Source: Octopus sinensis (taxonomy: Eukaryota). From it: DNA of 64,000 nucleotides. Below are positions 4,484 to 56,302 of this stretch, piece by piece (within the stretch, counting starts at the first letter, position 1; every line of letters begins with the position of its first letter). The translations under genes and the position numbers were made by a program. The notes beneath the pieces were generated by a model, which saw only the letters and a program-made list of their open reading frames with translations, was not told the origin of the DNA and did no database searches. Location of the stretch: contig NC_043001.1 of the NCBI RefSeq assembly GCF_006345805.1, positions 1,054,001 through 1,118,000 of the forward strand, written 5' to 3'.

Positions 4484-4778
4484 ATATTTGAAAAAATAAG
4501 TAGGAATGGCTTTTGGGGGATAATTTTTATGTTAATAATAATGTTGTTTACAATGAGTGACTGTGGTATGAGTTTCAAGCTTCAAATAGCCGTTTTCAAA
4601 CTGAAAAATATATGTTTAATTGGTTGCTTAAATGGCTTATTTAAGCAACCAGTAAAACATATATTTTTCAGTTTGAAAACGGCTATTTGAAGCTTGAAAC
4701 TCATACCACAGTCACTCATTGTAAACAACATTATTATTAAAATAAAAATTATCCCCCAAAAGCCATCTCTATTCATTT

Positions 4779-4787
<9 letters not shown>
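4484..4787. repeat. Near-perfect ~300-bp palindrome (arms ~150 bp, 5-nt loop at 4634-4638)
   Basis: 4484-4633 is the reverse complement of 4639-4787, with few mismatches in the inner ~120 bp. Confidence 0.95.
4669..4717 (+). ncRNA. Hammerhead ribozyme-like motif, type I, U3-A8 variant core (mirror copy on - strand at ~4555-4603)
   Basis: AGU-UUGAAAA-C-GGCU(auuuga)AGCU-U-GAAAC-U(cauaccac)A-GUC-ACU. Confidence 0.55.
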
Positions 4788-4820
<33 letters not shown>

Positions 4821-7800
4821 GGGTACTATACTATTTCTTAGAAATATTATTGTTCTCATATTTATTTTTAAATAATCTTACGCATTTCAGAAATATCTAT
4901 ATATGTATCTGTGTCTGTCTGTCTGATCATCTCTCTATATCTATATATGCACATATATGTATTTATATACACACATATATATATATGAATGTATATATAT
5001 ATTATTTATATATAAATACACACACACAAATATATACATACATGGATATATCTATATACATTTATGTATCTATATGTACACACACACACACATATGTATA
5101 TCTACTGAATTGGCAACATTAGTTAGAATAGTGGCTAGAACATATTGTGGTATTTGCTGTGGTTTTAAGCACCGTGTGATCAAATCCTATTTCGGTCAAC
5201 TTGATCATTCATCCATTTGAAATGCAGAAAGATTGACCTGTCCAGGGATGTGGACTGATGTTACAGCATTGGGGAAAATGCTCATATCTGCTTTGGCTCA
5301 GTACAAACTGAGTTCAAATCCCATTTACTGTTGCTAGACAGGTAAAATCCTCTGATGCTTGGCCAAAATGCTGATATGCCAGGGATATCCTTAAACAAAT
5401 GCCGATGTGGTTCAGCTGATCACTCTGAACGTCAGTATGTAATTTATTGGTTTACACTGGCAATGAGTCTGAGAGTCTTGCAGTAGTCAAAGAAGGAGAA
5501 AAAGAACAACTCAGCTGGATTGGAACATCACCATGTGTTCTAAATATAGAACCAATATTCTGTTATTCCATTGATCTAAATAATTCAGAAATATAAAAGA
5601 ATGGCAGAGGGGGTGAAAGCTTGCTTGTTACCTTGATAAATAGATAGAAAGAAAGAGAGAGATATAGACATGTAGATAAGTAGGTAGATGTGTATGGCTA
5701 GAGAGAGATAGATAGATATAAATCGATAGACAAGCACATAGACAGACAGATAAAGATAAAGAGATAGATATAGATAGATATAGAGATGAATAGATATTGT
5801 GAGAGAAAGGCAGAGGTGGAGGGGTGGCTTAGTGGAGCTATACTGAAGCAGCTACAAGATGTTTACTGGTTAAATATGTCCAGAATTCTTTCATAAAAAC
5901 ACTAATGATTTTAGAATGAAAGTCTATGGATGTAGTGTAAAGCTTGTATGTGTGTGTGTGCATTTGTGTATGTGTGTACATAAATGTATGTCTGCATATG
6001 TATCTAAGTGTGTGTATGCTTGTGTGATTATTACAATAATGTTTCAGTAAGTTTTGTCAAGGCTAAAAAGAGAAATAAACAAAAATTATAAATTAGAAAA
6101 ATTCAAGAATTCAAATCAGTTTTATTTCCACCTTGAAGCCAAATTAAATAATTAAATAAATACACAAATAAAATAGATTAAGAAGAAATTTAAAACAAAA
6201 TGAACTGAGAAAGAAAAACTAGAAATATAGATGTAAACAGAAAAAACACCCCAAAATACTCTAAATCTCCCCAAAAAGGAACATTGAAGAAGAGAAACTG
6301 TGTGAAACCTTAACTATGTTCTATTATGACATCATACTCTGCAAGGTATCTCATAGAAAAAAAAATTCACGATGGCAACTGTAATAATGTTGAGTTGGTA
6401 GAAGTAAAATTTGAAAACTAAAATGGAAAAATGAAAAAAAAAACAGAAAGTAAAAAACAAAATTAGTTTCCAGGAGCAAAAATTAAATAAAGTTAAATAA
6501 GTAAAAATAATTTTTTTTATAAGTGGCTGGAAGAAATGTTGTAAAATTAACAATAATAATAGTAATAATATTAATAATAATAATGATAATGATGATATTA
6601 ATAATAATAATAATAATAATGAAAATAGTAAAGAAGAATAAGAAGTGAAAATTAAAATATTTGCTGGAAAAATTTCAGGTCTGTCCTGTCAGATGATAGA
6701 AACTGTTTATTCAAAGATTATTGCAACAACTTTGAATCTATTTATTTATTTACTTATCTAATTTTGTTGCGAGTGTTTGTGACGGAGATTTACTAAATAT
6801 GATAATATAGTGTGAAGGTATTTTTTTGGTTTTATTCATTGTCAGGGGAAAGGAAATAATAAACAAGTCTGAGTGAATAGCAATGAGTCGATCGATGAGA
6901 AGGTAACGAGGAAAACAATTTGACATATAATATGTACATTGATGACAGTATGAGTGAACCACACGCTGTTGATGTATTGATTTCTTGCTCAAGTACAACG
7001 TAACAGAATGTTAGTGCTGTTGTTGTTTAGCCCTTGGCCAGAAATGATTGGGCAGACCTATGATCAAAGATGTTCTAGTTATGTCTATCCAGTTTTTGGA
7101 AGCAAATTATGTAATGCTTACCCACTTAGTATGGTTGTGATTTACAAGAAATTTGGTTGCTATATTTAGCAGTATGAGCAACTACAAAGATGTTTTGTGA
7201 TTTGGTTGAAGGTAGCAAAGTGTAGGAATGCTAAGGTATGGCAATGAGTCCAACACAAGAACAATGTGCATTATGCTGACCTTGGATGACCAAATATATA
7301 TATATATATATATAAAAGTTAACTGGTAATACTTAAATGAAGAGGAAAGAAACTAAAGGAACAGTAAACCATTTTATCTTAAAGGCATTACCATACTGAT
7401 GCCTTTAAGGAAATGCTGAATGTATATATTTTACTTTTGTTATTAAAACTTCTTTCACTCTGACAATCATTCACAACACTCACCACCCAACAAACAAGTT
7501 TTATCAACACACTGAACCACTGACAGACCAATGAAATCCTAACAGATGGAATATGCAATGGGATTCTTGGCACCAACTAAAACATCATTATTAGAAATTT
7601 TGTTTCCTTGTTGTTCTTCAATGTCCATATATGGAAATACAGGTCCCTGTTATATAATTAGTTACTGTTCTTTTGGATGGGTTTTCTACTTCACAAAGAA
7701 AGCAGCTTCGATTTGGAACAAATCTCTTGTTCCAAATGAGTTGGTGCTGGTAACCAATCATAAAACATTTACAAGAGAATTTTTACTGCAATGGAGAGCA

Positions 7801-8738
7801 GTTTTCTATTTGTTCCGTCTTGTTGTCGGCATTTGGAATAAGATTCATTTTCTTCAGAAAATAACTGATGTCAACAACAGTGGTATGAACGTGTGTGTGT
7901 GTGTGTGTTGTGTGTTGTGTGTTGTGTGTGTGCACACACGCACTTATGAGTGCATAAGTACATGAACACAAACATTTCTTCTCTCCTCCATCTATTTTTC
8001 TTTTACACACAAACATGTACTTGTGTGTGTGTGTGTGTGTGCATGTGTGCATGTGTATGTGTGTGTGCGTGTATGTGTGTGCTTGCGCATATGTGTGTGT
8101 TTGTATGTGTGTGCGTATATGTGTGTGTGTATGTAAACTCTAAAGTTGAAGTCAGATTTTTTCGTTCACTCATCATTGTTTTTGTTTTTAGCTTATCTTA
8201 CTTTCTGTTCTTGCGAATGTAGCTGTATGTCTATGTGTATGCATATGTGTGCGTTTGTGTGTATACGTGTGTGTATGTATGTATAACACATACGTAGATA
8301 CAAACATAAAAATGTGTACATGTGCATGATGATGATATTTATGTGTTGGTGTGTGTGTGTGTATGTGTGTATTTATATACATGTGTATATGTGAATATAT
8401 GGGTGTGAGTGTGCAAACACATACCCACATATACGAATATACACATCTGCATAGGTATATGTACATTTGACTATTTGAGTATGTGTGTGTGGGTATATAT
8501 GTGTATACATACATACACACACACACACACACTCACACACACATACACACACGGCAAGAGAGAGAGAGAGAGAGATCGAAAATAAACATCTGTCTGAAAG
8601 AGCAAGTTGCTATAGAAGCAAACAACAAACTGATTGATAATTTTTTAGCCTTTCGTGAAGTGAACAGGAAAACATATCAAAAAAGTATAAATAAAATATA
8701 CTAAAAAGAAATATAGAGCAAAATCGAAAAAAAATTAT

Positions 8739-8787
<49 letters not shown>

Positions 8788-9369
8788 TACACAAACACAC
8801 ACACATATGTATGTATATATGTATGTGTATATAGTAGAAAGCCTAAACTCAAAAATATATAAAATGGTTGAAAAATATAAAAAAAAATTGACCAGAAAAA
8901 ATCTCTTCGATACAAAATGTCGGTTGGAAGAGAATAATTTTTGTGAAGAGTTTTATTGATTTCGGCTCTCCACCAACTAACCTACCTGCATTGTAATTGT
9001 TGCCTGTTCCTTTAGGAGCCAATTTGGATATAGGTGGGGAAGGGTGGGAAGAAGGGGGAGAAGGGTGTTAAGGAAAAAAGTTGAGGGAGAGGGGAACAAA
9101 ATGTGAAAGGAAAGGGGTTGTATATGTGAGTGGATATGTGTGTGTGTGTGCATATATATATACATACATGTATGTATGTATGTAGTTGCATGCACATATA
9201 TATGTGCACAGGCATCTGTTCAAATACGTGCAGACACACACACAAATATGTGTGTGCTAGTAGACACACATGGGTGCATTTATATGACTGTGTACGGGCA
9301 GGCTGTGTGCCTACACAAGTCTCTTTACATGTGTGAATATGTGTGTCAGTGAGTATGTTACATACATAC

Positions 9370-9374
9370 ATATA

Positions 9375-9424
<50 letters not shown>

Positions 9425-9682
9425 CAAATATATATTCATATAGGCATACATATATACATACATTTATATATATGTTTATACACATGCATATGTAAACATT
9501 ATATATGTGTATACTCATATAAGTGTAAGTCAATTTATTTACACGAAAATATAAATATATGAATTTCTGTGAATATAACCGTATAAATATATATATATAT
9601 ATATGTATATATGTACATATATATATGCATATATATGTATATATATATATGTGTATATATATAAATATATACATATATATAA

Positions 9683-11423: not shown

Positions 11424-11689
11424 TCTTTACTCTTTTACTTGTTTCAGACATTTGACTGTGGCCATGCTGGAGCACCGCCTTTAATTGGGCAAATCGACCC
11501 CAGCACTTATTCTTTGTAAGCCTAATATTTATTCTATTGGTCTCTTTTGCCGAACTGCTATGTTACAGGGATGCAAAAACACCAGCATCAGTTATCAAGC
11601 GATGTTGGAGGACAAACACAGACACACAAACATATACACACACATACATACATACATGTATATACATACACACATATATATATATGCAT

Positions 11690-11720
<31 letters not shown>

Positions 11721-11900
11721 TATATACACATATATACGATGGGAATCTTTCAGTTTCTGTCTACCAAATCCACTCACAAGGCTTTGGTTGGCCTGAGGCT
11801 ATAGTAGAAAACACTTGCCCAAGGTGCCATGCAGTGGGACTGAACCAGGAAACATGTGGTTGGTAAGCAAGCTACTTACCACACAGAAACTCCTGCGCCT
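11424..11900 (-). mobile_element. Full-length tRNA-derived SINE with CORE-like segment
   Basis: Minus-strand head TGTGTGGTAAG..GGTTCAGTCCCACTGCATGGCACCTTGGGCAAGTG; second full copy at 51390-51840, partial copies at 17960-18195, 23560-23800, 25195-25326, 38370-38520, 57320-57450. Confidence 0.85.
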
Positions 11901-12084
11901 GCGTTTATAAAATTATTATAAATATATATATTCATAGATATATATGAACACATATACACATACATTCACACATGCACACACATATACATATATGTATACG
12001 TATGTATATGTATATATATGTATAGATATATGCATATATAATTATACACACACACACATATATATGTATACATATATATGTGGT

Positions 12085-12654
12085 AAGAAGACCCAACAAG
12101 CCAAGTGAGACCATAAACCGTCGCCTATGCCAGTGGTGTAACGAGCCCAATTATGCATACCTTTCCTTCACTGGACAATAAACTCTGCTTGCAAAGACCT
12201 GTTGAGGCAAGTGAAATCGAAATCAAATTCGATGACTGGCATCCATGCTAGTGGAGCGCTAAGAGCACCATCCGAGCCGCTGATTGGCTTCTGTGCTGGT
12301 GGAACGTAAAAAGCACCATTTGAGTGTGATCATTACCTGAGTCACCTTACTGGCACTTGTACCAGTGGCACATGAAAAACATTTGAGTGAGGTCATTGAC
12401 AGTGCCGCTGGACTGGCTCTTGTGCAGGTGGCACGTAAAAAACACCATTTGAGTGTGACGGTTGCGATACCACCTGACTGGCCCTCATGCTGGTGGCATG
12501 TAAAAGCACCCACTACACTCTCGGAGTGGTTGGCATTAGGAAGGGCATCCAGCTGTAGAAACTCTGCAAGATCAGATTGAAGCATGGTGCAGTCCTCAGC
12601 AAACCGTCCAACCCATGCCAGAATGGAAAGTGGATGTTAAACGATGATGATGAT
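12085..12654 (+). mobile_element. RTE-LINE 3'UTR copy with internal ~65-bp tandem units
   Basis: Homologous to 3497-3840(-) and 50603-51170; ends GTTAAAC(GAT)n. Confidence 0.85.
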
Positions 12655-12669
12655 ATAAATATATATATG

Positions 12670-13016: not shown

Positions 13017-13230
13017 AAGGCAGTGATCTGGCAGAAATGTTAGCACACCGGGCGAAATGCTTGGCAGTATTTTGTCTGTCTTTATGTTCTGAGTTCAAAT
13101 TCCGAGGTTGACTTAGCCTTTCTTCCGTTTGGGGTCAATAAATTGAGTACCAGTTTCATACTGGGGTCGATCTAATCAACTGGCCCCGTCCCCAAAAGTT
13201 TTGGGCCTTGTGTCTAGAGTAGAAAAGACT
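13017..13230 (+). mobile_element. tRNA-derived SINE with Meta/MESC-like core. Further copies on the - strand at 22915-23130, 33290-33482, 35401-35612, 41068-41265, 41628-41845
   Basis: A box TGGCAGAAATGTT, B box GAGTTCAAATTCC, core GCCTTTC(A)TCC.TTTGGGGTC.ATAAATT.AGTACCAG. Confidence 0.85.
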
Positions 13231-16102: not shown

Positions 16103-16137
<35 letters not shown>

Positions 16138-16138
16138 A

Positions 16139-17384
16139 CAGGGGTTTGACAAAACAATGGAAACACCTAGCATCATAGCATCATAATTTTGAAATATCTA
16201 TAAAACTGTCAAAAGCTTGTTTATTTTTATTTTTTTTGATTTATTATTAGTGTTGCTTAATATGTTTTGCTAAAACTGCTGTTTCTCTTCAGATATCATC
16301 AGAAAAAGGTAATTAAAATTCATCAAAATGACAGATCTATCAGACTTTCAAGGAGGTCAAATTGCTGGTGCTCTAATGGCAGGTGCTAGCATAACAAAAA
16401 CAGCTAAAATGTAATGACAGCCTTTGAGAAAGAAGGAAAAACCTCCTCGTCAAAACAAAACTCCAAAAGAAAACCAAAACTTTAAGATAGAGACCATCAT
16501 ACTTTTTATGCAAATTGTTAGAAAGGATCACAAAAGTACATCTCCCAAAATTACTGCAGAGCTTAATGACCACCTCAAGAATCCAGTTTCCACAAAAATT
16601 GTTTGCCAGAAGCTGCACAAAGCCGGATTGCATGGGAGGGCTGCAATCAGAAAACCACTACTTTCAAAACAAACATTGCAAAGCATTTAGAGTGGAGTAA
16701 AAACCTACAAAATTGGTCCCTAGAGCAGTGGAAGAATGTTATTTTCTTGGACAAATCATCCTTTACCCTATTTCTGACCACCGGCTGAGTATACATGTGG
16801 AGATAGCCAAAAGAAGCATTTGATCCAGACTGCTTTCTTCTAACTGTTAGGCATGGAGGAGGATCTGTGATGATCTGGGGGGAGGTTGGGGACTATATCT
16901 TTGAAATCCAACTCAATGATTTCTCGTCATGGCAGAATTAATGGTCAAGACTATTTAAGCATTTTATCTGATCAAATTCATCCTATGGTTGCAGAACTGT
17001 TTCTGGAGGGAAACGCAATCTTTCAGGATGATAATGCACCAATTCACACAGCTAAAGTTGTTACTGAATGGTACAAGGAACATTCTAGTGAAGTTGAACA
17101 TCGATCTGGCCACAACAGTCCCCAGATTTCAATATTATTGAACATTTATGGTGCATTTGAGAAAAGCAAGTAAGGAGTCGATGTCCTCCACCATCACTAC
17201 AAGAACTGGAGACTGTTTTAACTGAAGAATGGACAAAAATTCCTTTGAAATAAAATTCAAACTTTGTATGAGTTCATACCTCGGAGAATTCAAGCTGTAA
17301 TTACTGTCAAACATGGTCCTACCCTATATTACGCTAAATTTGTTTGAAATTTTAAGGTGTTTCCATTATTTTGTCCAACCCCTG
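16139..17384 (+). mobile_element. Full-length, inactivated Tc1 (DD34E) DNA transposon
   Basis: 30-bp TIRs CAGGGGTT(T/G)GACAAAA(C/T)AATGGAAACACCT with TA on both sides; disrupted transposase from ATG 16328 (MTDLSDFQGGQIAGA..GRAAIRKPLLS..WKNVIFLDKSSF..FQDDNAPIH..SPDFNIIEHLW). Confidence 0.95.
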
Positions 17385-17439
17385 TATGTGTGTATAATAT
17401 ATGTATATATATATCGACAAAATATTCTAACAGCAGACA

Positions 17440-17830
17440 AATTATGAGATGATGAAAATAGGAGATAACTTCATAGATATTCGTCTCACCCACATTCAAT
17501 GGTCGTTAACCCAGCAGAGCACATCAACAAACACTGTAAAAGCAATACCTAGAGCTGTAAATGTGGTCATTCATGAAAATACATTAAGAAAATGAATTCT
17601 AAAGCAGGTAACTGTAAGAGCGCTTGATACGACTAATGTTTTAGAACCAGATTTTGTATGTGTAGCAGCAACAGAGCTACCTGCTTTAGGATTCATTTCA
17701 TTAATGTGTTTTGATGAATAAATGTCTTTCCAGCTCCAGGTATTGCCATTACAGCATTTGGTCGGTAAACTTGTAATGAATTGAATGAGTCCAATAGTTA
17801 TGAAGTTTCATGAAATTTTAATACTCTGTT
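17440..17830. repeat. Diverged ~400-bp fold-back element
   Basis: GCAATACCTAGAGCTG..AATGAATTCTAAAGCAGGTA pairs with TACCTGCTTTAGGATTCATT..CAGCTCCAGGTATTGC; outer AACTTCATA/TATGAAGTT. Confidence 0.75.
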
Positions 17831-18675: not shown

Positions 18676-18717
<42 letters not shown>

Positions 18718-18803
18718 CATTAAATTTAGGGTAAAAATTGATATTTATCAATTAGAACCAGTGGTCTAGCATATTAAAGAAAGAATCCGAAGATTAAAAT
18801 ATT

Positions 18804-19165
18804 TATATATACCAATTAAGGACTGAACACGAAAAAGTGGACAGTCAACATGCTAGATATAGACGTCAAATCGTCATTCTCCACAAAAAGTCTATGTTCT
18901 CAGATCAAACTCAACACAAAACCAAAACAATAAACGACCATGCTGATGATGGCTGCACTTTTCCTTGCGGAAAATAACAGCCGAAACTGAATTTAGTACA
19001 TGGGTAAATATTTATTTCGTATATTTTTCACTTGTTTATTGTTTTGGTTTTGTGTTGAGTTTGATCTGAGAACATAGACTTTTTGTGGAGAATGGCGATT
19101 TGACGTCTATATCTAGCATGTTGACTGTCCACTTTTTCGTGTTCAGTCCTTAATTGGTATATATA
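18804..19165. mobile_element. Young fold-back element in (TA)n, Penelope pLTR/retrozyme-like
   Basis: Arms 18804-18935 and 19034-19165 are reverse complements with one mismatch; the spacer holds a hammerhead. Confidence 0.8.
18938..19003 (+). ncRNA. Type I hammerhead ribozyme
   Basis: Stem I CCAUG/CAUGG; core CUGAUGA; stem II GGCUG/CAGCC extended by UUUUCC/GGAAAA; GAAA; stem III ACUG(AAUU)UAGU; cleavage triplet GUA 18996-18998. Confidence 0.9.
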
Positions 19166-19289
19166 TATATACACACACACACACATATTAAAATTATAAT
19201 TTAGGGTATCTATGAGACACCACTATGCTGAAAATAGGAGACAGGATCCAACTCTAAAACCACATTATTTATATATATTTATATATATA

Positions 19290-19700
19290 TATATATTTGT
19301 TGTGCAAGATTTTTTAGGTGAAGTCGTGTGTTGAAACAGATATTGTTATATTTCGGAATGGTCATTTTGCCAGTTTAGACAATAAAAACACACGCACTAT
19401 ATATTTGGTGTTATTTTGCTTCAGTGTTATTTATTTTTTAATCTTATTTCGGCCAGAGTTCTTTCGTCACACTCCTGTGACCGCATCAGTGGTCCTTTGT
19501 TTTCTTCTTTCTTATTTGTGTCTCTCTTTTCTAACCGTCAGCCATTTTGTATTTCTATTGTATGTCTTCATTTGCGCATGCTTATATCTCTATGTGCGAC
19601 TATGTTTATTTAGTGTGTGTGTGGGGGATGCCTGTAATATTTGTATCTTCTGTTTATATATGTTCATGTAATTTGTTTTTGTTGTTGTTGTTTATTCTTA
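19290..19700 (-). mobile_element. Non-coding (TA)n-associated repeat carrying a hammerhead; related termini at 47130, 53330 and 56030
   Basis: Shared terminus GCAAGATT.TTTA.GTGA.TCGTGTGTTGAA.CA.AT. Confidence 0.65.
19451..19494 (-). ncRNA. Minimal type I hammerhead motif, slightly decayed
   Basis: Minus strand GACCA-CUGAUGC-G-GUCAC(aggagu)GUGAC-GAAA-GAAC-UC-UGGCC. Confidence 0.7.
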
Positions 19701-22906: not shown

Positions 22907-22918
22907 TGATGATGATGA
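22798..22918. repeat. Compound (ATG)n(ATA)n(ATG)n microsatellite
   Basis: Direct inspection. Confidence 0.95.
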
Positions 22919-29055: not shown

Positions 29056-29095
29056 TGGCTGAAGACTAGCACCACACTTGAAACTCAGAGTACCA
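29056..29095 (+). ncRNA. Decayed type I hammerhead motif
   Basis: UGG-CUGAAGA-(cuagcaccacacuu)-GAAAC-UCAGA-GUA-CCA; near-palindromic stem III ACUC(A)GAGU; stem II poorly paired. Confidence 0.55.
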
Positions 29096-32330: not shown

Positions 32331-34267
32331 CAGCAAGTGGATTGATCCACAGTTAAATGTTTTGGAAGGAAAATCTATTTGCTGCGATGTTTCATCCCCT
32401 TACATTGTTGTAATATTTCTCATAAAATAAACTGCTTATAACTTACAATGATTTTTAAAATTGATGAAGAATTTTGTAGAATATATTTGAAATAATGAAC
32501 TTGTAGCATTTAAGTTAGAGTTTAGAAGAAGACAAAATGTTCCAACACAAAGTCTTAAGATGAAGATTTTTTAATCATGTCCAAGTTAGCCAGACTTAAC
32601 TCTGTCAGGCAAGAGTGACTTTTGGGAAGTTTCTCTTCAAGATATAAACATCAGGAAAGAAGTTTTTCCTTTTTAACAGAAGACCAATAGTAGAAAGTTT
32701 GCCCCTTCTACAGCACTGATGTCCTGGAGAATGACAGGTATCAATAATACAGTGTGATACCAGTGTCATTACAGGTGAAATCATGACACAATAATCTCTG
32801 TGAATTTATTGCTCTGGATTGGTACATTTTTTATTTAAGCTTTCCCTCCCATGCCTGCTCCCCCACGGATGAGAAGCAGAGGGGATTTCAGAACATACAA
32901 AACTGGAACAAATACCACAAGGTATTTTGTCTGATACCCTGCCAATTACCCAATGAACTCATCCTATTCATTCTAGAATTGTTTACAGAATGAATTACTC
33001 AGAGATGCCATCTGTATGAGAAGCAATCATCAAGTTAGTATTAATAAATCTAACGCAGTGAGCATTATGAAGCTAAACAGAAATAATTAAGTGACGAGAT
33101 GATATTAGGTATTGGGTAATCTAATTCTAATTAGAAAATCAAGGTTGTTTACATATTAGATTAGCCAGGGGTGCCAATTCTCTCATCATTATTTGGTACT
33201 TATGGTGCAGTCTCTGTTTCACTGATGAGAGCATAATAAGACCAAAACATGCCCTAAATTGCTTCTTGTTATATTGAAATAATTAAAATAATTACTTCTT
33301 GCTAGGGCACAAGGTCAACAGCTTTCAGGAGAGGCAATCAGTACATTACATCAACCCCAGTATTTCACCAACATTTTATCTTATTAACCCTGATGGGTTG
33401 AAAAGTCAAAGTTCACCTCAGTGGAATTTGAACTCAAAACTTAAAGAGCCTATGCTCTAACAATTCTGCTAATCTGCTTCTTTGAAAAACTTGAAAGAAC
33501 TGAAAACTAAAACGAATAAAATTTTCATTTGTCCAGCCATGATTTAAGAAAATGGAAAGAATTTTATCATGAACTGAGATTTGTACTCCCCCCACCCTTA
33601 CGACATTCTTTTTTCAAGTTAGGTTTTTAGTGTTCCTTCAATTAAATATGTTAATACTGATTTAACTCCTCATATTGGCAGAATAAAAATTCCTTAGAGA
33701 CACCAGGGAGCCAACACGGAAGCACATCTACACTAGCGATTCTCAAATGGAGTCTCATGGATTTTTTTGAAATACAATTTAAGGCTTCAGAACATCCACA
33801 CTAATAACCAAGCATTTTTTTTTTAAACTTCGTAATTTCTATTTTTTTTTATACCCAAGTTTTCTATATTTTTTTCTGAATTTGTAACTTTAAAGCTCAG
33901 ATTTTTTTTAAACAGAGATATGCATCAGTAATTTTTTTTAGTTTGCATTGAAAGCAATGTTTTTTGTTTGATCTTTAATGCAACTACAAAGTCAAAAAGA
34001 AGATTGGGAACCATTCCACTACATGGTCACTCCATCTAGAAATAGCAACCAAATATCCCTCACATCACACCCTAAAATATTAGAGAAGAAAAAGGCTACA
34101 TTAGATAATGTGGGTAAGCATACTCCTCAAAAGATAGGGTGGTCATATTTGGAGTGACCTTTGATCATAAATTTGCTTCTAATATCTCACTCACTTCGCT
34201 ATTTGGTTAAAATCTTTTTGTTGATATAATTAGAGAAATCAATATTTAGGTAGACAACAAACTACAT

Positions 34268-40600: not shown

Positions 40601-41305
40601 CACACACATAGCCATACAGTTTGTATTCTTGGATGGTGATACTGGGTTCTGATTCACTCAACTCTTGGCGGCCCAGTCCATGTAGCTGTAAAACAGGTTT
40701 CGTATTGCAATACACTTTATTACTAAGACAATATGAGCTTTGTATTATTAGCTTGTATTGCTCCCATGAAATATTTTAACAGGATTAACAAGCAAGATGC
40801 TTCTCCACTAGTGTCATCATTGGAGCCCCATGGCACTGCCACCACCAACACCACACACCATAAACAAGAGGGATTAAAAAGGATATGGAAATGATACTTC
40901 CATACACCTTTCCCTTTTTTTCTACCACATGACTTCATAAATGAACAATCTGGTGTGTTTATTTTGATGGCCCACCAATGTATACAGTGAGTTTCTTTGC
41001 CCTAGGTGTCGGGAAGACACTTGGCAAGAAATGAAAACAAAATTGAATGAAGAGGACGTTGATAATAATGATTTCAATTTTTGGCACAAGGCCAGCAATT
41101 TCGGGGAGAGGAGATAAATCGATTACACTGACCCTAATGTTCAACTAATACTTAATTCACAGACCTTGGAAGGATGAAAGGCAAAGCTGACCCCAGTGGA
41201 ATTTGAACTCAGAACGTAAAGTCAGAAAGAAATGCAGCTAATTGTTTATCCCAGCTTGCTGCCTTAATAATAATAACAATAACAACAACAACAATAATAA
41301 TAATA

Positions 41306-41627
41306 GGATGATTTAAAGTGGGAAATACAAATGAAAGTTGTGGCCAATGAGGAGAGTAGACATGGTACTAATAGTAATTGGTGCAGTTGGAAGTATCAGC
41401 ACTCAACTACCAACATGGCTGAAAAAGATTGATACAAGTGTGAAGGTAGAACACCTACAAAAATCAGCCTTGCTTGGAACTGCAAGAATTCTTTGCAGGG
41501 TTCTTGAAGCTTGACCAGAAAACAATTGTTACCTTAGTCTGCTGGCTGTGGACAGCTGACACTTTCCATCATTCCAAGCAAAATAAGTTGTGAGATTTCA
41601 TCACATGATAACAATAATAATAATAAT
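41306..41627 (+). mobile_element. Dong/R4 3' end, same subfamily as 39243-39603, between (TAA)n tracts
   Basis: HLQKSALLGTARILCRVLEA*; shared 3'UTR CCTTAGTCTGCTGGCTGTGGACAGCTGACAC. Confidence 0.85.
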
Positions 41628-43984
41628 ACTTTTGTGCTGTATGAACAAAGCTTGAAATTTTGTGGAAGGGGGCTAGTTGATTACATCAATCCCAGAGCAT
41701 AACTGGTACTTATTTTATTGACCCAGAAAGGATAAGGGGCAAAGTAGACCTTGGCAGAATTTGAACTCAGGATGTAAAGAAGGACAAAATGCCACTAAGC
41801 ATTTTTTTTCCAGTGCATTAATGATTTTGCCAGCTTGCTACCTTTCTAATAATAATAATAATAATAATAATAATGATAATAATAAGTGAGGAAATGTTCA
41901 GTAGTAATGCATAGAAATATTTTAACAGATCTGGCAACACCTTCAGAGAGATTTAACCAATAATGTTATTGAACCTTATAAAGCAAGAATTTTGTTTTCA
42001 TCTCGTTTTGTTTCTGATAAAATTGATAATTAAACCTAACAACATTACAGCTTGAATTATTCTCAAATATTTCTGATACTTTCACATGAAATAATCAAAC
42101 ACTGTTTTATTGATGTTGCACACCCTATTTATTGTTTTGTTTTATTGGGTAATTGTTGAAGATAAACAAATGCCGGACAAGAATAAACTGTATTTGATTA
42201 ACTGCAGGTTCCATGTGAATGTGAAAGAGAGAAAAGAGTTGTTTAAAGAGATATAATGGTTAGATATCAAAGACCGGGATTACAACAGTTGACACAAAAG
42301 AGACAAGGCTAGAGAGTTATAACAGATTAACCTGGTGTCACCCTGTTTCTCATGAATCAATGTTGCCCTTGTGGGCGAGTTCCTTTTTAAAATAATCAAG
42401 AATATGGAGGAATTTGGTAAAGTAACTAATGTTGTCCTTATTAAGCTGGCGTTTGTTGCATCACAAATTATCCGTACATAATATTACTATGGAAGGCTTT
42501 AATTTAAATATTAACTCTTTCGACTGGATGGTTTGTATGAGAGAAACTGAAGGGGTCTCAGGTGGCTGGAATTAAATGTGTTAAAGGAGATTCATGAATA
42601 AGATAGATTTAGAGTAATGAGGGATTGTCATTGATAAGGATGTGAATGATGACAAAAGGACTCTGACCAACCAGTTGACTGGTTGGTCAAAACAATTCAA
42701 TGAGGAGATTAGGTAAATTGTTAATTAATAAGAATTAAAAGAAACAAAACCAAATCAATATGGGTTTCTAATTGGCAAAAATGATTGCCCCAAGATACAA
42801 CTACATTTGTTTCAACACATTATTTCACTTTGAGAATTTTACAAACTAAATACAAAAATGAAATATCACAAATCATTAACAGGAAAAAAAACTGAAAAGT
42901 TTAATATTTGGCAGAGCTAAATTCAGTTTTTCAGATGAGAAGTTTTTCAATTTAATGCTTGCTTCTCCTCATAGGGTGGCTTCCATATTCCTTTGATCTT
43001 TTCTACAAGATTATTTTATCATCTATTTTTGCAAGATTCCCTCACAAAAAGAAGTTATACAAAAAAACAGCCATGGGAACACATTCCTTGAAAACTAGAT
43101 GTTTGCAACAAGACTACAGTGAGACTAAGGTGACAAGATATAAAGTGACAATGTTTAATTAATAGATGAATATCTTATTGACTCAGGTGATAGACACCTT
43201 TTTAATAACCTGGTAAAGGGCTGGGATCAGGGTAAACTGCATCCAGAACATTCTGTTGAGTGGTTGGGGTCAGGAAAAGTTATCCAGTTGTAGAAACGAA
43301 AACTGAGGTGATCAAGTGAGATCTGGTCCTCTGACCTGGCGAGAAAAGCTGTGAATCTGAATAAAATGTGTCCAACTGAAGACAGCTTTGGAAACAGATA
43401 TGAAACGATGATGAATGAATGGAAAGTTTCAAGCTTGGATCTTAAGGACATTGTTAGAAGATGCAGAAATAGTCATGTGGTCACTTCACAACCATTTGAT
43501 CCTGGTGTTTGTGTTTGACACTTTGGGCAGTGGTCTTCTGACAAACATTTGCGGTTCTCTAAAGGTTTGTAACAGAAATTTGGAAGAGGGAAACTGTGTA
43601 GAAGCCCAATGGGTATATGTGGGAGTATGTGTGTGTATGTATACATACGGATACTAATATACATGTATTTGTCTGTTTGTCTATCTGTCTATCTGTCGGA
43701 CTGTCTGTCCATCTGTCTATCTATCTATCCGTCCCTATATGTGTGTGTGTGTGTGTGTGTGTAAAGTAAGATTCTATTGTGTTTAGAAAAAGATTTTTGC
43801 AAACACAAAGCTCTGCAAGCACAGCTGAGCAGTTCCAGCTCAGTGCCACTGGGTGAGCCTGCTGGGTAACACTTTGAGCAAACAGAAACTGCAGGGAAGC
43901 ACTGTGTATGTGTGTGTGCATGTGTATATATATATATATATATATGTGTGTGTGGAAGGCATTTAAGTCAATAAAAGATGTGCT

Positions 43985-45991: not shown

Positions 45992-47129
45992 AAGGGTTAG
46001 TTTTGATCAGTTTTCAGTGAATGGAGAGAGAGGGAAAGAGAGAGGTAGACAGAAATGGAAATGAGAGAAAGGTTTGAGAGCTGGAGAGTTGTTGAGAGAC
46101 AGAGAAGGTGAACTAGGAAAAGAGAGGTTGAGGGAGAGAGATGGAAAGGAAGAGAGCGAGAGAGGTAGAGAGAGAGGTAGAGAGGAAGGTTGTTTCCTTT
46201 GCTTTCAATGTTAATGAAAGTGTGAAAGTTAAATGTTAAGTTGGAAATCTCGATTTCAATTTAGCGAGAGAATTAATTCTGTGTCAGATGTCACAGCATC
46301 AACACGAATACTAATGTTTGGTTCAATTTTAGAAAATTAGGCACAACCAAGGAATTTTCTGTCTGAAAACTAATGCGCCTCACATTCACCTGGAGGAGCT
46401 GGGTGGGTGGCTTTTAAATTTATCTATTTGATTTTATTCATTTATTTGTTGTTACTACTATTTATTATTGTTATTATCATCATTAGCATCATTATTACTG
46501 TTGTTATTATTATTTCAGTCGGGGGTGGGGGTGGTGGACAGGATGATAAAATATCGGAAAACTATTCGTCTTTCTTTCACCTTTTTTTTTTTAAATTACT
46601 TTCCTACAACAAAAACATTGTTAAACTTTTATTTCTAAGAATTTCGCTGTTATTTGCTCAGCAGCAGCACACAAGTGGGTTCTTTTACATTATTATAAAG
46701 TATTTGAAGAGAATTGCTCTCATTTCTTCTCCTCCAAGAATTTAATTTACTGTTGACTCGTGTAAGATATTGAAGGAATTAACTGCAATTGAAGATGGTT
46801 TTCTAAGTAAGTAAAATTCAGGATGCAGAGAGGGAGGGAAACAAAGTTTATGTTGCAGCTAAATATATTCTGAAGATCCATATTTTGATGCTTGACCAAT
46901 CAGCAAAAAAATGTTGAACACTCTATTGATCAACATCACCAGTGTTATGATGACAGCGATGATGATGATGATACTAATAATTTAGGGGACATGAAAAACT
47001 ACAGTTGGTAAACATAAATTCCTTTTCTGACACTGTGTATGTGTATATGTGTGCTTTATACACACACACACACACACTTACACACACATACATTCACACA
47101 ACTATGTGTGTGTGTGTGTGTATATATAT

Positions 47130-47295
47130 GTGGTTTTTTGATTTGGTTTGCAAGATTCTTTATGTGAGTTCATATGTTGAAGCATATTCTGTTGCGTTGA
47201 AAACTTTAGGAAAAATAAAATAGTAAATGAATGGAAACTTTACTGGTGAGTGTATTAAATAACAAGGCACTTAAAGAAAATGACTGTGTCCGATA
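47130..47295. repeat. Rearranged member of the 53330 fold-back family
   Basis: GATTTGGTTTGCAAGATTCTTTATGTGAGTTC..GAAGCATATTCTGTTG joined to the inverted part (TTTAGGAAAAAT..GGAAACTTTACTGGTGAG). Confidence 0.75.
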
Positions 47296-47369: not shown

Positions 47370-48100
47370 GTTTTGAACCAAAATTGTTGAAGAAGATTTA
47401 ATTAAAATCTCTTTCTATCTGATGTGATGACCACACAAGGGATGTACCACTTTCACTTTCAAAATATTCTTGAAGGGACACATTCATCATGTTGTATTTT
47501 ATGAGTTTTATAAAGGAGTGAAGCCAAGTGCGGCCATAATAAGGTGCAATGGGATAAGTGAGGGCAAGTAGGGAGTTTAGTGTAAAGGATGAGCAAAAGG
47601 AAGGTCAAGCAAGAGTAGTTGATTGGGAGACAGTGGTCGGAGTTGTTGCGGCAACACTCCAGCATTACAGTTAAGGATCTTAGGGGACAATTCAATGTTA
47701 GCAATATGACTGTGTTTACAAAGACACTTGGAAAAGTGTCAAAAGTTGCCAAAAATGAGTCACTCTGTGCAGAGAATCACCAATAACAAATCGATTCCTG
47801 TGAAGCATTGCATCAACTTTATCCCCACATGAGGTTCTTTTAGGTGGGGGAGTGAGAATGTTAAATGCCATCATCAGTGATTCGGTTGTGGTGACAGATG
47901 TACCCGAAAGCTGTGGTGGGTGGGTGGGTTCTGGTATTTAAAGAAGATCATGCTGCGTGTGTGATGTTATGAGCTGATGCAGTGGGTGGGGTGGGGGAAT
48001 GAAGGGGATGCCTGTAGGGATCCTTCCTTCTTTGCTGGAAACAAGTGTCAAGTTGAAGAGCAAAGATTTCACTGTTGTATGTTGGAATATGCAAAGAATT
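47370..48100 (-). mobile_element. Highly decayed CR1/L2-group LINE fragment
   Basis: Weak resemblance to the CR1-type C-terminal region also seen at 63700-64000. Confidence 0.35.
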
Positions 48101-50602: not shown

Positions 50603-51170
50603 TAAGCCAAGTGAGACCATAACCTAGTGGCCTATACCAGGGGTGTAACAGCCCACTTATGCATACCTTTCCTTCATTGGACACTAATCTCTGCTTGCAA
50701 AGACCTGTTGAGGCAAATGAGATCGAAATCAAATTCAATGACTGGCTAGTGGAGTGCTAAGAGCACAATCCTAGCATGATCGTTGCCAGAGCAGCTAACT
50801 GGCTTCCATGCCGGTGGCACGTTAAAAGCACCATTCAAGCGTGATCGTTACCAGCGTCAGCTTACTGGCACTTTGCCGGTGGTACATGAAAAAAACATTT
50901 GAGCAAGGTCATTGCCAGTACCGCTGGACTGGCTCCTGTTGCAGGTGGCACGTAAAAAACACCATTTGAGCATGGCTGTTGCTAGTACTACCAGACTGGC
51001 CCTCGTGCCAATGGCACGTAAAGCACCCACTACACTCTAGGAGTGGTTTGTGTTAGGAAGGGCATCCAGCTGTCGAAATTCTGCCAGATCAGATTGGAGC
51101 CTGGCACAGCCATCTGGTTCGCCAGTCCTCAGTCAAATCGTGCTAGCATGGAAAGTGGACGTTAAATGAT
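50603..51170 (+). mobile_element. RTE-LINE 3'UTR copy with ~65-bp tandem units
   Basis: Collinear with 12097-12654. Confidence 0.85.
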
Positions 51171-51389
51171 ACCCTGTTTGAACATAAAGCCTGTAGAATA
51201 TTTGGGCCTGGATGGTTTAAATGCTAAAAGGGTTGAAGAATCTTTTGTTATCTCAGTCAAAGAAAAAGAGTTTTTAAGTTAACCTTTTAAAATATTATCT
51301 TTTAACAGTTTTAGCTATTTTACTAAATCCCTCCCATTCGTTAGTTTAAAACATCAAATTAATAATTATAGAGATGTTAGGTTTTTTTA

Positions 51390-51840
51390 TCTTTTACTTG
51401 TTTCAGTCATCATGCTATGGCCATGCTGGGGCACCACCTTGAAGGATTTTTAGTTGAATGAATTGACTCCAGGACTTTTTGTGTCTTAAGTCCGGTACTT
51501 ATTCTATTGGTATCTTAGGCTGAAGCACTAAGTTATGGGGATGTAAACACACCAACACTGGTTATCAAACAGTTGTGGGGAGAACAAACACAAACACACA
51601 CACACACAAACATGTACACACACAGACAAACACACACACACACATACACACACAAACAACACAGACACACACATACATACACAAACACACGTCTGGCTTT
51701 TTTCAGTTTCCATCTACGACTCACAAAGCTTTCGTCAGTCTGAGGGTCTGGTAGAAGACATTTGACCCAGGTGCCACACAGTACGACAGAGCTTGTGGGT
51801 GGGAAGCAAGCTTCTTACCACACAACCATGTCTGCACCTA
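51390..51840 (-). mobile_element. Full-length tRNA-derived CORE-like SINE
   Basis: Collinear with 11424-11900. Confidence 0.85.
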
Positions 51841-52788
51841 CCTCTGTTGTCAATTGACTTGTTAGAAATAGCAGCCTAATCTCCTTCATTTCAAACCCAT
51901 CCTTAAAATGAGACTCATTGGAAAGTATAGATACATGGTGTTTGAATAAAAGGTGAGAGGGTCATGGTTAGGACTACCCTATGCCCTAGTTCTTCCTTCT
52001 CAAAGCTGACCACATAAATTCTAAACAATAATATACTGAAGGGTCCCCATCTGGAGACACAAAACAACAACAACAACAACAACAACAAAAGAACTGATTT
52101 AAGCATTGTCTTTATGGCTTTCTTAATGTGAAGTCAAGTGAAACACTCTGGGAGTCTTTTTGTAGTTATTTCATCTGCTTGAAAGAGCAATCAAATTCTT
52201 TCAAATCACAACCCACTATCTTTATAAAAGAAGGACACACGGACCAATGTAAGCCTTAGATGTACCAAAGACAAAGACGCCATGGATGGAACTCGTTCAT
52301 ATGCCTGTTGGATCCTAAAGTGACCTGGGGGTCAAACAATAACAACTGCAACAACAACAAGCAACCACCATTTATCACAGCTACTTTCATAACAGAATTT
52401 AGAAAATGGATTCCGCTACACACCATCACCACCACCATCACCATCACCAGCATCAACATTAGCAGCAGTGCCACCGCTGCCACCAACGCCACCATCATTG
52501 TTTAACTAAGTGACGCTGATCTCATTTACAAAATGTGTCTACCTATTTTATATCGCTTATCAGTTAATCTCTCAAGCGTTTTCCTATCTAAATGTTGCAT
52601 TAGTCTTTAATGAAGCAAGGTGTTTGGAAACATTATTCTGGTCAAAGTCAGCTCAGTTGAATCTTCAATTCTAGAACTTTTGAACTAATGCTTAATAACA
52701 TTGAACTTTATAAACTTCTTTAAAACATCACATGGAAACATTTTGGTGTGAGCAGTTTGTGGTCACACAGAGGCAAGGAAGAAAAACG

Positions 52789-53297: not shown

Positions 53298-53329
53298 TAA
53301 TTCTAAATATAGACAACAACATTAAATAT

Positions 53330-53670
53330 ATATTTCGTTTTGGATTTGGTTTGCAAGATTCTTTATGTGAGTTCGTGTGTTGAAGCATATTCTGTTGTGT
53401 GTGGGGAGAGTGATTCTCCTTTAGTGCCTTATAATTTTACACAATCACCGGTAAAGTTTCCACTTATTTCTTATTTCTATTTTCCTAAACTTTTCGTTGC
53501 ATCTTGTAACATTTTCAATAGTCAAAACTATTGAAAAAGTTGGAAGACGCAACAAAAATTTTAGAAATATAAAAAACAAATAAGTGGAAATTTTATCATT
53601 GAGTGTGTAAAATTATAAGACACCAAAAGAGAATCACTCTCCCCAGACACAACACAAATAAATAAATATA
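53330..53670. repeat. Fold-back element: diverged ~260-bp palindrome (53394-53654) centred near 53524, with U3-A8 hammerhead-like motifs in both arms
   Basis: TGTTGTGTGTGGGGAGAGTGATTCTC...TTTTCAATAGT pairs with ACTATTGAAAA...GAGAATCACTCTCCCCAGACACAACA. Confidence 0.85.
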
Positions 53671-53717: not shown

Positions 53718-55050
53718 TCATATGGCGGCACTGTGAATGAAGATAGAGTGACCTGGGAATATTACACCAGACTTAGGAAAATATGGCAGTCGGAACTCTC
53801 CTCTTACAGCAAAACAATATCCCACAATGCATTTGCAGTACCAGTGCCAACATTTGGGATACTTGACTAGTCTGTAGAGGAAATCCATTCTATAGATATC
53901 AATACCTGCAAAATCCTGACATCAACTGGGAACTTCCACAGAAACAGTGATGTTGACAGGCTCTACTTAAGAAGAAATGAAGGTGGTAGAGGCCTGAGAC
54001 CAGTGCAGACGGCCTTCGAATGTTATATGGTGTCACTCAGGCTGCACCTGTTAAACAACAGCAGTAAAAATAAATATATATAAATGCAGTCCTGAAAAGT
54101 GAAGTGAGCAACATTGTATGAGTTGGTAGTGAACTCCTCAAGAAACATGCCCTTCCTGATGATCTCCTATACAGCCCCAAAACAGCTGGGCTCTCTTACC
54201 TCAGAGAAGACGTGGATGGAGAGCGCTCAGCATACAGAATAAAGACTATGCATGGGTATGTTGCCTGGAAGCTTGAAGATGACAGTAGAATTGACACGAA
54301 GCACAGCCTCTCTTGGACACAAGACCACTACATTACATCCCACTGGTGGACAAGAGACAGGGATGCTCTTGTAATCCCAAGCTGCCACTGCATGTGTCGG
54401 CTGTGTCATGTTTCTGTGGAAGACATTATGCATGTGATAAGCAGCTATCCTAAAATGTCGTCACAGTACTACACAACTATGCGGCATGATGTTGTCGCTA
54501 AAACAATTTACATTGCCATCCGCAAAAAAGACTGTCCTGGAATAAACTTAGAAAATCCCTCTGTTATGGAATACATTTATAAACACCAACTCAAAGAATA
54601 CTGATGGAATATTCCCATCAAAACTTTTGTTAACTGTAAGCATAACAGACCGGATATTGTTGTTTGGGACAGAGGGGCAAAGGTATGTACCATCATAGAG
54701 GTTAGCTGCCCTGCAGATATTAATATCTATGGACAACTGCTTCGAAACCTCCAGCTTCCATACCCAGAGTAGGAATTCATATTCATACCAATAATAATTG
54801 GAGCTCAAGGTTTTGTTAGTAAATGCTTAAAGGAGAATCTGGATACACTGGGATTTTCAAAAAGAGAAACTCACTCACTGATTCGTACATTACAAGTGCA
54901 ATCTGTGACTGGAAGAGTAAAAATATGTAAGACTTTTCTCAAGTTCCAAATGGGAATTTGTCTGTGTTAGCTACATCCCAAAGATGGGGCCTTGTATCTT
55001 TGTTGAAAATCGGCTCCCTCAATGGAAGATTTATAATAATTAAAAAATAG
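53718..55050 (+). mobile_element. 5'-truncated R4/Dong-related LINE (RT C-terminus, CCHC, RLE), disrupted
   Basis: FHRNSDVDRLYLRRNEGGRGL; CRLCHVSVEDIMHVISSYP; RHD; NRPDIVVWD..IIEVSCP; PIIIGAQG. Confidence 0.9.
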
Positions 55051-55611: not shown

Positions 55612-55790
55612 TGGCCTTTGCCTTTCTCATGGATAACATTGGTCGCATGGAGAGTGGAGGCTGATAGACATGGCCGACTGCTGGTCTTGCATGAACCACC
55701 AAGCCTGAACTTGTGCCTTGGGGGCGAACTTTTTAAGTACAATTCCATAGTCATTGATGACTGAAAGGGGTCCTTACCATTTACCCTTAA
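55612..55790 (+). mobile_element. SINE 3' portion
   Basis: Reverse-complement match to 18290-18470. Confidence 0.6.
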
Positions 55791-55955
55791 ATGAAAGGCT
55801 TAAATTTTTTGTAAAAAAAAAACATTCCTGATGAATCTCTGAAATGGGAGGAAAGTGCTAAATAAATAATTGTCGAAGATTCTGAGTGTCTCATTTTCTT
55901 AATATATATAATCTGTACACCACTTCCAACAATTTGCATATACAAATATAAATGC

Positions 55956-56028
<73 letters not shown>

Positions 56029-56029
56029 T

Positions 56030-56140
56030 ATGTGTTGTTGTATTTAGGTATGGTCATGTTGCCAGTTTATACAGAAAATACAACATCTGTTTCAACACAC
56101 GACTTCACAACAAGAATCTTGCGAAACAAATATATAAACA
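56030..56140. repeat. Inverted-rearranged fragment of the 19290 family between (TA)n tracts
   Basis: ATGGTCATGTTGCCAGTTTA (+ orientation) joined to TCTGTTTCAACACACGACTTCAC..AATCTTGC (- orientation). Confidence 0.75.
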
Positions 56141-56141
56141 T

Positions 56142-56180
<39 letters not shown>

Positions 56181-56183
<3 letters not shown>

Positions 56184-56302
56184 CAAAATAAGCAAAATAA
56201 GTGGTAATGCAGTATGATCATTTCATGTGACTCCATTTAATTGAATAATATGAAACGATCATACTGCATTACCTCTGGATATCCTTGTTGCTTATTTTGA
56301 TT
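56181..56302. repeat. Inverted repeat adjacent to (TA)n
   Basis: AATCAAAATAAGCAA..GGTAATGCAGTATGATCATTTCAT / ATGAAACGATCATACTGCATTACC..TTGCTTATTTTGATT. Confidence 0.85.

What the first reader, a model, noticed from the sequence alone, without database searches (positions are those of the whole stretch)
4484..56302. Dispersed system of non-coding, (TA)n-associated, fold-back elements carrying hammerhead ribozymes (Penelope-derived or retrozyme-like)
Seen: hammerhead-shaped motifs at 4669, 18938, 19451(-), 29056, 29343 and 53485-53564, with weaker ones at 33222 and 55825. They lie in short ORF-less elements from about five sequence-unrelated families, almost all touching (TA)n tracts and often duplicated in inverted orientation. 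Established: type I hammerheads with a palindromic stem III occur in the terminal repeats (pLTRs) of Penelope-like elements, which often leave inverted terminal duplications; retrozymes are non-autonomous relatives. Inference: this genome hosts many non-autonomous self-cleaving retroelement families mobilised in trans, since no Penelope RT/GIY-YIG ORF is visible here. If they lie in a transcribed intron, they could yield cleaved, circular or double-stranded RNAs.
Basis: partly seen in the sequence, partly recalled or inferred. Interest (0 to 1): 0.85.

Follow-up and report, generated by a model that had tools for sequence, protein, structure and literature searches.

The report
Penelope retroelement stubs with hammerhead ribozymes
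Several short repeats next to TA microsatellites in this probably octopus DNA carry hammerhead-shaped RNA motifs that are predicted to cut themselves, and they are most likely the truncated ends of a well-known kind of jumping gene (Penelope-like elements), so the finding is real but mostly ordinary.

Summary
Partly confirmed. One intact type I hammerhead (18938-19003), four decayed but credible ones (19451-19494, 29056-29095, 29342-29399, the mirrored pair 53485-53564) and one doubtful one (4673) are present; 33222 and 55825 do not exceed chance. Six of the 8 named sites have a (TA)n tract within 170 bases downstream (background 13%). The anatomy matches published Penelope-like elements (PLEs): palindromic helix III like the Hydra clade, (TA)n targets, inverted partial copies, an extension past an internal TATATA. 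The elements are not all unrelated or ORF-less: 19451 and 53485 are homologous, with compensatory changes, and end 70-80 bases inside a conserved ORF start, as PLE insertions do. No tandem retrozyme array exists here, and fold-back joints in other copies of the 18938 family fall at varying places. Best reading: 5'-truncated, partly inverted copies of several PLE families. A (TA)n-targeting, hammerhead-bearing octopus PLE is already published (Hydra-1_Obim), and the scan noted a Hydra-type hammerhead on other DNA. The parent RT/endonuclease ORFs were not found; cleavage and expression are untested. New members of a known kind.

The parts
18938..19003 (+). Family A: intact type I hammerhead. Helix I 5 bp (7 with one mismatch), core CUGAUGA plus an extra U, helix II 5 bp extended by an internal hairpin, GAAA, palindromic helix III, predicted cut after A18998
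   Evidence: minimum-energy monomer fold is the hammerhead fold and the dimer gains 11.6 kcal/mol through a 12-bp intermolecular helix III; covered as one piece by contigs of 3 of 4 runs (18936 to 19009-19013) and inside a 18936-19040 piece in the fourth
19004..19171 (+). Family A body downstream of the hammerhead, ending in (TA)7 at 19158-19171
   Evidence: 160 bases from cut to TA tract
18812..18935 (-). Inverted partial copy of family A (123 of 124 identical to 19034-19157), joined at the 5' base of helix I
   Evidence: loose ends before 18936 in runs X2 and X5 show that other copies differ upstream of this point
18685..18811 (-). Extension of about 80-95 bases past an internal TATATA, ending in (TA)16; likely the optional PLE 'tail'
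   Evidence: contigs of runs X1, X2 and X5 cross this region, e.g. 18736-18809 with no difference at depth 391; interpretation inferred from PMC11167929 and PMC8557442
19451..19494 (-). Family B hammerhead, minimal helix III, one core change (A9 to C)
   Evidence: covariation with 53518/53531
19280..19365 (-). ORF start ([24 protein letters not shown]) cut off about 70 bases after the ATG by a (TA)n tract
53485..53564 (.). Family C: mirrored pair of decayed hammerheads with a U3-A8 core (53485-53521 on -, 53528-53564 on +) at the apex of the fold-back
53326..53657 (-). Family C element: TA-bounded end at about 53334, ORF start fragment 53331-53414, inverted partial copy 53526-53657 (111 of 130 aligned letters identical)
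47121..47295 (-). Second family C copy: TA-bounded end 47122-47197 plus an inverted piece 47199-47295 that begins inside helix II and carries the ATG
56032..56181 (+). Second family B copy without hammerhead: end 56080-56145 before (TA)18, with the ATG half inverted at 56032-56082
29056..29095 (+). Hydra-type hammerhead, helix III ACTC-A-GAGT, weak helix II; TA-rich tract begins about 30 bases later
   Evidence: same helix III as Penelope-3_HM in File S2 of PMC8557442
29342..29399 (+). Hydra-type hammerhead, helix I 7 bp, helix III ACAG-CTGT, one core change and a mismatch in helix II; nearest TA tract is upstream (145 bases from the cut)
   Evidence: same helix III arms as Hydra-1_aMil, Penelope-1_NV and Penelope-1_SK
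4484..4813 (+). Fold-back (140 of 151 identical between arms) ending in (TA)15, with a doubtful UUGAAAA-core hammerhead remnant at 4673-4708 in both arms
55822..55865 (+). Possible hammerhead remnant 42 bases from a short TA tract; not above chance
   Evidence: missed by the descriptors; distance
33217..33260 (+). CUGAUGA motif only; not above chance and not near a TA tract; not accepted

Best explanation
These are most likely the short, 5'-truncated ends of several families of endonuclease-bearing Penelope-like retrotransposons, each predicted to have been copied into a TA microsatellite and often left with an inverted partial copy beside it. Mechanism: the element's GIY-YIG endonuclease nicks (TA)n DNA (inferred from the clade); its reverse transcriptase starts at an internal site a short way downstream of the hammerhead, for family B/C 70-80 bases into the ORF (end position shown; initiation inferred from the anole Poseidon element); synthesis runs back through or towards the hammerhead and stops early; a second priming or template switch adds the inverted piece (structure shown, mechanism inferred). 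The hammerheads belong to the parent elements' terminal repeat, are built to work as dimers through the palindromic helix III (predicted), and in most solo copies are decaying passengers. 18938, 29056 and 29343 have Hydra-clade-like ribozymes; 19451/53485 have minimal ones and belong to a PLE lineage not identified here.
For: (1) Ribozyme architecture equals the published PLE type: extra base between positions 9 and 10.1, palindromic helix III, and the U3-A8 core variant known from Schistosoma Cercyon PLEs (PMC4209133); helix III arms at 29056 and 29343 are the same as in Hydra-clade entries. (2) Between 19489 and 53518/53531, 3 of 6 counted pairs change on both sides, including C3-G8 to U3-A8; 16 of 18 cells pair, against 28-56% for slid controls; a fourth double change in helix I is seen by eye. 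(3) B/C copies end inside a frame whose variable columns fall 4/4/8 on codon positions 1/2/3, with 3-4 synonymous codon changes in each of the 5 between-copy pairs other than C53-C47; the same start peptide is the N-terminus of an Octopus bimaculoides gene model and occurs in Logan ORFs. PLE insertions end 111-118 bases into the ORF in the anole element (PMC11167929). (4) Inverted 5'-truncated copies, a one-sided tail and (TA)n targets are described for PLEs, and Hydra-1_Obim is an octopus example with a hammerhead about 100 bases from its end (PMC8557442). (5) Family A is a many-copy repeat in three species labels (1127, 556, 226 and 26 contigs laid from 4 of 4 runs) and the 9 listed joints meet the right arm at 18952 (five letters more between), 19054-58, 19082, 19095-99 and 19109, i.e. 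variable 5' ends, 8 of 9 downstream of the hammerhead.
Against: No RT or GIY-YIG ORF was tied to any of these families: none of 475 window ORFs of 45+ residues gave a PLE-type Pfam hit above cut-off, and the start peptide was found on no long protein (10 hits; 8 of 713 candidates, longest 136 aa). The start peptide does not resemble the Hydra N-termini seen and is absent from the stored part of the Naiad/Chlamys/Hydra supplement. The covariation rests on 3 sequences; 43 of 500 shuffles reach it. No copy with a definable junction extends more than about 35 bases upstream of its hammerhead, which a fixed short unit would also explain. Published Hydra-1_Obim has a different hammerhead sequence, so it is not the parent of these copies.
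Confidence: 0.8

Rival explanations
1. They are true non-autonomous, retrozyme-like families: fixed units of about 200 bases that begin at the hammerhead, are transcribed on their own and are copied in trans by a PLE protein.
For: Family A is very abundant in several species labels; junctions at 18936, 53523 and 47198 lie at or inside the hammerhead; animal retrozymes are reported to derive from PLE terminal repeats, with many monomeric copies (bioRxiv 10.64898/2026.07.22.740005); family A shows no clear ORF start.
Against: Retrozymes are defined as tandem repeats with canonical hammerheads (PMC7229834); none of the 38 tandem-repeat rows in the window covers a hammerhead. 5' joints vary among family A copies. 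B/C keep a codon-patterned ORF start.
Confidence: 0.12
2. The fold-backs are MITE-like DNA-transposon derivatives with TA target duplications, and the hammerhead shapes are incidental.
For: 4484-4788, 18799-19170 and 56178-56305 are long inverted repeats bounded by TA; Tc1-type transposase remains lie in the window.
Against: Arms are asymmetric (the right arm of 53390-53657 lacks the terminal 60 bases; 47122 and 56032 are inversions without duplication), joints vary among copies, and the 18943 motif had 0 matches in 30 shuffles while 19489/53518 covary.
Confidence: 0.04
3. Most motifs are chance matches in AT-rich DNA and only 18938 is real.
For: Under the loosest descriptor 4673, 19489, 33222 and 53518 score in the range chance reaches, and 29056 and 55825 are missed; Rfam finds none.
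Against: 19489 and 29349 exceed shuffles under the stricter descriptor; 19489/53518 are homologous with double-sided changes; 29056 and 29343 repeat published helix III sequences. The rival holds for 33222, 55825 and possibly 4673.
Confidence: 0.04

Closest known systems
Hydra clade of C-terminal-endonuclease Penelope-like elements, incl. Hydra-1_Obim of Octopus bimaculoides (Craig et al. 2021, PMC8557442)
   Same: (TA)n insertion; sense hammerhead near the 3' end; helix III as a 4-6 bp palindrome (ACTC-N-GAGT, ACAG..CTGT); short run from ribozyme to an ATATA end, sometimes with an extension past it.
   Different: No Hydra RT or endonuclease was linked to these copies; their hammerhead sequences differ from Hydra-1_Obim; family A runs 160 bases from cut to TA, longer than the roughly 30 bases after the motif in Hydra-1_Obim.
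Minimal hammerheads of metazoan PLE terminal repeats, incl. the U3-A8 variant of Schistosoma Cercyon (Cervera and de la Pena 2014, PMC4209133)
   Same: Extra base after position 9, G10.1-C11.1, short palindromic helix III, mostly solo copies or pairs on opposite strands 100-700 bp apart, and the U3-A8 covariation.
   Different: Here the C3-G8 and U3-A8 forms occur in two related octopus-type families in one window; octopus was not found in the one supplementary file of two that could be searched.
Poseidon element of Anolis carolinensis (Frangieh et al. 2024, PMC11167929)
   Same: Insertions end inside the first codons of the ORF, downstream of the hammerhead, at AT-rich targets, with an optional tail.
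   Different: There the ORF starts within the hammerhead and ends fall at +111 to +118; here the ATG lies about 85 bases after the hammerhead and ends fall at about +70 to +80.
Animal non-LTR retrozymes (PMC7229834; bioRxiv 10.64898/2026.07.22.740005)
   Same: Short, largely non-coding, type I hammerhead, related to PLE terminal repeats.
   Different: No tandem units here, hammerheads are of the PLE type, 5' ends vary, and one family carries an ORF start.

Membership tests
Endonuclease-bearing Penelope-like elements | Type I hammerhead with extra base 9/10.1 and palindromic or minimal helix III near the 3' end | tested here: met
Endonuclease-bearing Penelope-like elements | Inverted 5'-truncated copy adjacent to the 5' end | tested here: met
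   variable joints in other copies
Endonuclease-bearing Penelope-like elements | Insertion end inside the ORF start, optional tail | tested here: met
   family B/C ORF start; family A extension; not shown for 4484, 29056, 29343
Endonuclease-bearing Penelope-like elements | Linked ORF with telomerase-like RT and GIY-YIG endonuclease | tested here: inconclusive
   none in the window and none found by protein search; no genome was held, so longer copies could not be sought
Endonuclease-bearing Penelope-like elements | Partial tandem (direct pLTR) arrangement in full copies | not testable with these tools
   only short truncated copies in the window; Logan contigs on the repeat are about 60-275 bases
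Hydra clade PLE | (TA)n target and long palindromic helix III | tested here: met
   18938 and 29056 (both features), 29343 (helix III; TA tract upstream)
Hydra clade PLE | DKT motif, CxCX5C linker, endonuclease without CCHH | not testable with these tools
   no coding region of the parents recovered; short-motif scan of six frames gave only chance-level hits
Non-LTR retrozyme | Head-to-tail tandem units each with a hammerhead | tested here: not met
   (window only; 38 rows, period up to 500)
Non-LTR retrozyme | Expressed as small circular RNA | not testable with these tools
   only contigs, no raw RNA reads, were offered
Hammerhead ribozyme (active) | Self-cleavage at the NUH site | not testable with these tools
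   predicted only; PLE hammerheads are reported to cleave weakly or only with protein

The most novel reading that the evidence does not exclude
The stubs are not random truncations but 'strong-stop' products: the PLE reverse transcriptase also starts at the internal site in the first repeat of its own mRNA and runs out at, or stalls on, the hammerhead, so that octopus genomes are filled with thousands of hammerhead-to-ORF-start units whose 5' limit is the ribozyme. Three of four definable junctions here lie at or inside the hammerhead and none reaches more than about 35 bases upstream. This would explain why PLE hammerheads are mostly solo, give a direct route from PLE to retrozyme, and make young copies such as 18799-19170, where the hammerhead fold costs only 0.2 kcal/mol at the tip of a 137-bp hairpin, a source of cleavable double-stranded RNA.
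Probability: 0.25. Interest if true: 0.55.

Novelty: new member of a known kind. Interest (0 to 1): 0.27.

Why it matters
As it stands it adds undescribed octopus-type PLE families and a clean, young, many-copy hammerhead that could serve as a test substrate, and it shows a C3-G8/U3-A8 core swap between two related families. It does not reveal a new kind of system. It would matter more if a genome-wide survey showed a hard 5' limit at the hammerhead, because that bears on the open questions of what the PLE hammerhead does and how retrozymes arise.

Tried and rejected
No whole genome was held, so the genome-wide search could not be run. First strict descriptor without the extra base found nothing. 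Rfam: no hammerhead family at three sites nor among the 150 displayed rows of 366. DNA pattern scans: 0 hits in metagenome contigs and viral contigs; peptide scan of metagenome contigs gave 180 pattern matches, none confirmed. Protein atlas: best score 0.84, no family. Four of the 10 hits and two of the 8 carry many short repeats of one motif and look like translated prokaryotic repeat arrays (my reading); they were dropped. A GIY_YIG_2 hit at 57968-58111 (E 0.0085, under cut-off) was inspected and rejected. A KNIP motif at 29318(-) resembling the Hydra N-terminus is out of register and follows a poly-A run: rejected as chance. TAGGGTA beside TA tracts is not enriched (8 against 6.2 expected). 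A high-scoring descriptor hit at 52204(-) has no helix III and no TA tract: not accepted. No RNA holder listed on record; the one guessed-RNA run laid gives no evidence on expression. Searches for octopus or cephalopod hammerhead papers returned Craig et al. 2021 and a count of 235 Rfam hammerheads in the giant squid, but no description of these particular families; Repbase/Dfam libraries were not available, so they may be catalogued there.
Full report
Source. No genome was held. The window is AT-rich animal DNA full of simple repeats and retroelement debris. A peptide read from these elements is the N-terminus of a UniRef protein of Octopus bimaculoides, and the family A stretch is held by runs of five species labels in 10 studies, so the DNA is probably from an octopus (inference).

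Are the motifs there? One is beyond doubt: 18938-19003 has an exact core, an extra U after position 9, helices I and II of 5 bp and a fully palindromic helix III; no such hit arose in 30 shuffles. Its minimum-energy fold is the hammerhead fold and two copies gain 11.6 kcal/mol by pairing helix III between strands. In contigs of 4 runs, the only substitutions listed at 3% or more inside the motif are at 18980 and 18982, plus single-letter deletions at 18989 and 18992 in helix III; none hits a core base, and the common one (18982 C to T; 77%, 64% and 43% of depth in three runs, absent in the fourth) turns a G-C into a G-U pair, while the rarer 18980 change breaks a pair. 29349 and 19489 pass with one core change each. 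53518/53531 and 4673 use UUGAAAA; alone they score at chance level. The 53 kb pair is, however, homologous to 19489: the core pair C3-G8 becomes U3-A8 and two helix II pairs change on both sides; 16 of 18 cells pair, against 28-56% for slid controls, though 43 of 500 shuffles match this with only 3 sequences. The U3-A8 swap is a published PLE variant (PMC4209133, first two of four parts read). 29056 was recovered only by a descriptor written after seeing the Hydra table; its helix III is the same as that of Penelope-3_HM. 4673 is doubtful; 33222 and 55825 are not above chance. Rfam has no model that fits.

Anatomy. Three elements have an inverted partial copy joined near the hammerhead and two related copies are split into an end piece and an inverted upstream piece (47122-47295, 56032-56145). 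In family A the inverted copy runs about 80-95 bases past the internal TATATA at which the other arm stops, and contigs from three runs cross that region, so it is likely family sequence: the one-sided tail of PLEs. Nine joints in other copies meet the right arm at several different places, 8 of 9 downstream of the hammerhead, which is the pattern of variable 5' truncation with fold-back. Families B and C share a 51-base end that reads as the start of a protein: four copies give N/R-I-C-F-N-T-R-x-H-x-K-N-L-A-x-Q-I (one with a stop), variable columns fall 4/4/8 on the three codon positions, and an ATG stands at the matching place in three of five pieces. The elements stop 70-80 bases after that ATG.

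What is known. Craig et al. (PMC8557442 passages; preprint passages and section 11; supplement passages and parts 2, 7, 52, 53 of 59 of a file cut when stored) describe 5' truncation, adjacent inverted copies, a one-sided tail and (TA)n targets for PLEs, and list Hydra-1_Obim from O. bimaculoides with a (TA)n preference and a sense hammerhead at 2403 of 2507. Frangieh et al. (PMC11167929, first two of four parts) show that reverse transcription starts at internal sites 111-118 bases into the ORF, that the tail is the stretch between two start sites, that the hammerhead cleaves only with protein present and is not needed for insertion in vitro. Cervera and de la Pena note that most minimal hammerheads are solo and probably belong to truncated PLEs. 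Penelope-like elements are abundant in octopus, with 31 recently active families in O. vulgaris (PMC13282606 passages; PMC8967140 passages). Retrozymes are defined as tandem units (PMC7229834 passages; preprint 10.64898/2026.07.22.740005, first two of five parts); the window has none with a hammerhead.

Mechanism and limits. Shown: motifs, covariation in one pair of families, TA-bounded ends, inversions, ORF start, many copies. Inferred: nicking of (TA)n by a GIY-YIG domain, internal priming, early termination, template switching, dimeric ribozyme action. Not shown: the parent ORFs. All 475 window ORFs of 45+ residues with normal complexity were scanned; the RT hits belong to non-LTR-type fragments at 2829-3725 and 36003-37801, and no long protein carries the start peptide.

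Verdict. Real, mostly explained: remains of several Penelope-like families, some with Hydra-clade-like ribozymes. It works like a PLE end with high confidence; membership of a named clade is untested for want of coding sequence. The scan recorded a Hydra-type PLE hammerhead on other DNA as ordinary. The one open point worth a genome-wide look is whether 5' ends pile up at the hammerhead. Supplements not seen (file 1 of PMC4209133, the cut part of PMC8557442, the O. vulgaris repeat library) may already hold these families.

Noticed in passing
window 19004-19146 (+): In family A a GTAAAT follows the 3' strand of helix I and a pyrimidine-rich stretch ending in CAG lies at 19130-19146: possible intron signals; no contig joint skips this stretch.
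   Followed up: partly
window 56178-56305: Inverted repeat (79% over 135 bases) directly beside (TA)18, without a hammerhead; may be another truncated-and-inverted PLE end or a MITE.
   Followed up: partly
window 17528-17760: Old inverted repeat (70% over 240 bases) not bounded by TA tracts; unexplained.
   Followed up: no
window 2829-4475 (-) and 20388-20870 (+): Fragments of non-LTR retrotransposon RT (Pfam RVT_1 below cut-off at 2829-3725); RTE-like by recall.
   Followed up: partly
window 36003-39150 (+) and 54122-54604 (+): Broken non-LTR element with RT and zinc-knuckle remains (Pfam RVT_1, zf-RVT); Dong/R4-like by recall.
   Followed up: partly
window 16137-17386: Tc1-type transposase fragment (PF01498 at 16418-16687) between 32-base inverted repeats at 16137-16168 and 17355-17386.
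   Followed up: partly
window 47619-47783 (+): Short helix-turn-helix Pfam hit (HTH_DeoR, E 0.00017), perhaps another transposase remnant.
   Followed up: no
window 11424-12668, 23552-23994, 50604-51839, 13018-13227, 22907-23119, 35422-35645, 41060-41884: Several dispersed 100-550-base repeat families at 70-80% identity, SINE-like in size.
   Followed up: no
window 52160-52211 (-): Second-best hit of the loosest hammerhead descriptor (score 12), long helix II, no helix III, one core change, no TA tract; not accepted.
   Followed up: partly
window 62046-63076: A 1-kb (ATA)n trinucleotide tract.
   Followed up: no
P0011 (UniRef A0A0L8I3J7): An O. bimaculoides gene model begins with the family B start peptide and continues into unrelated sequence: either a mis-predicted first exon or a recruited start codon.
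   Followed up: partly
window 19187-19265: Short non-simple stretch between TA/CA tracts, in line with the end of the family B copy; may be its tail or a further element end.
   Followed up: partly
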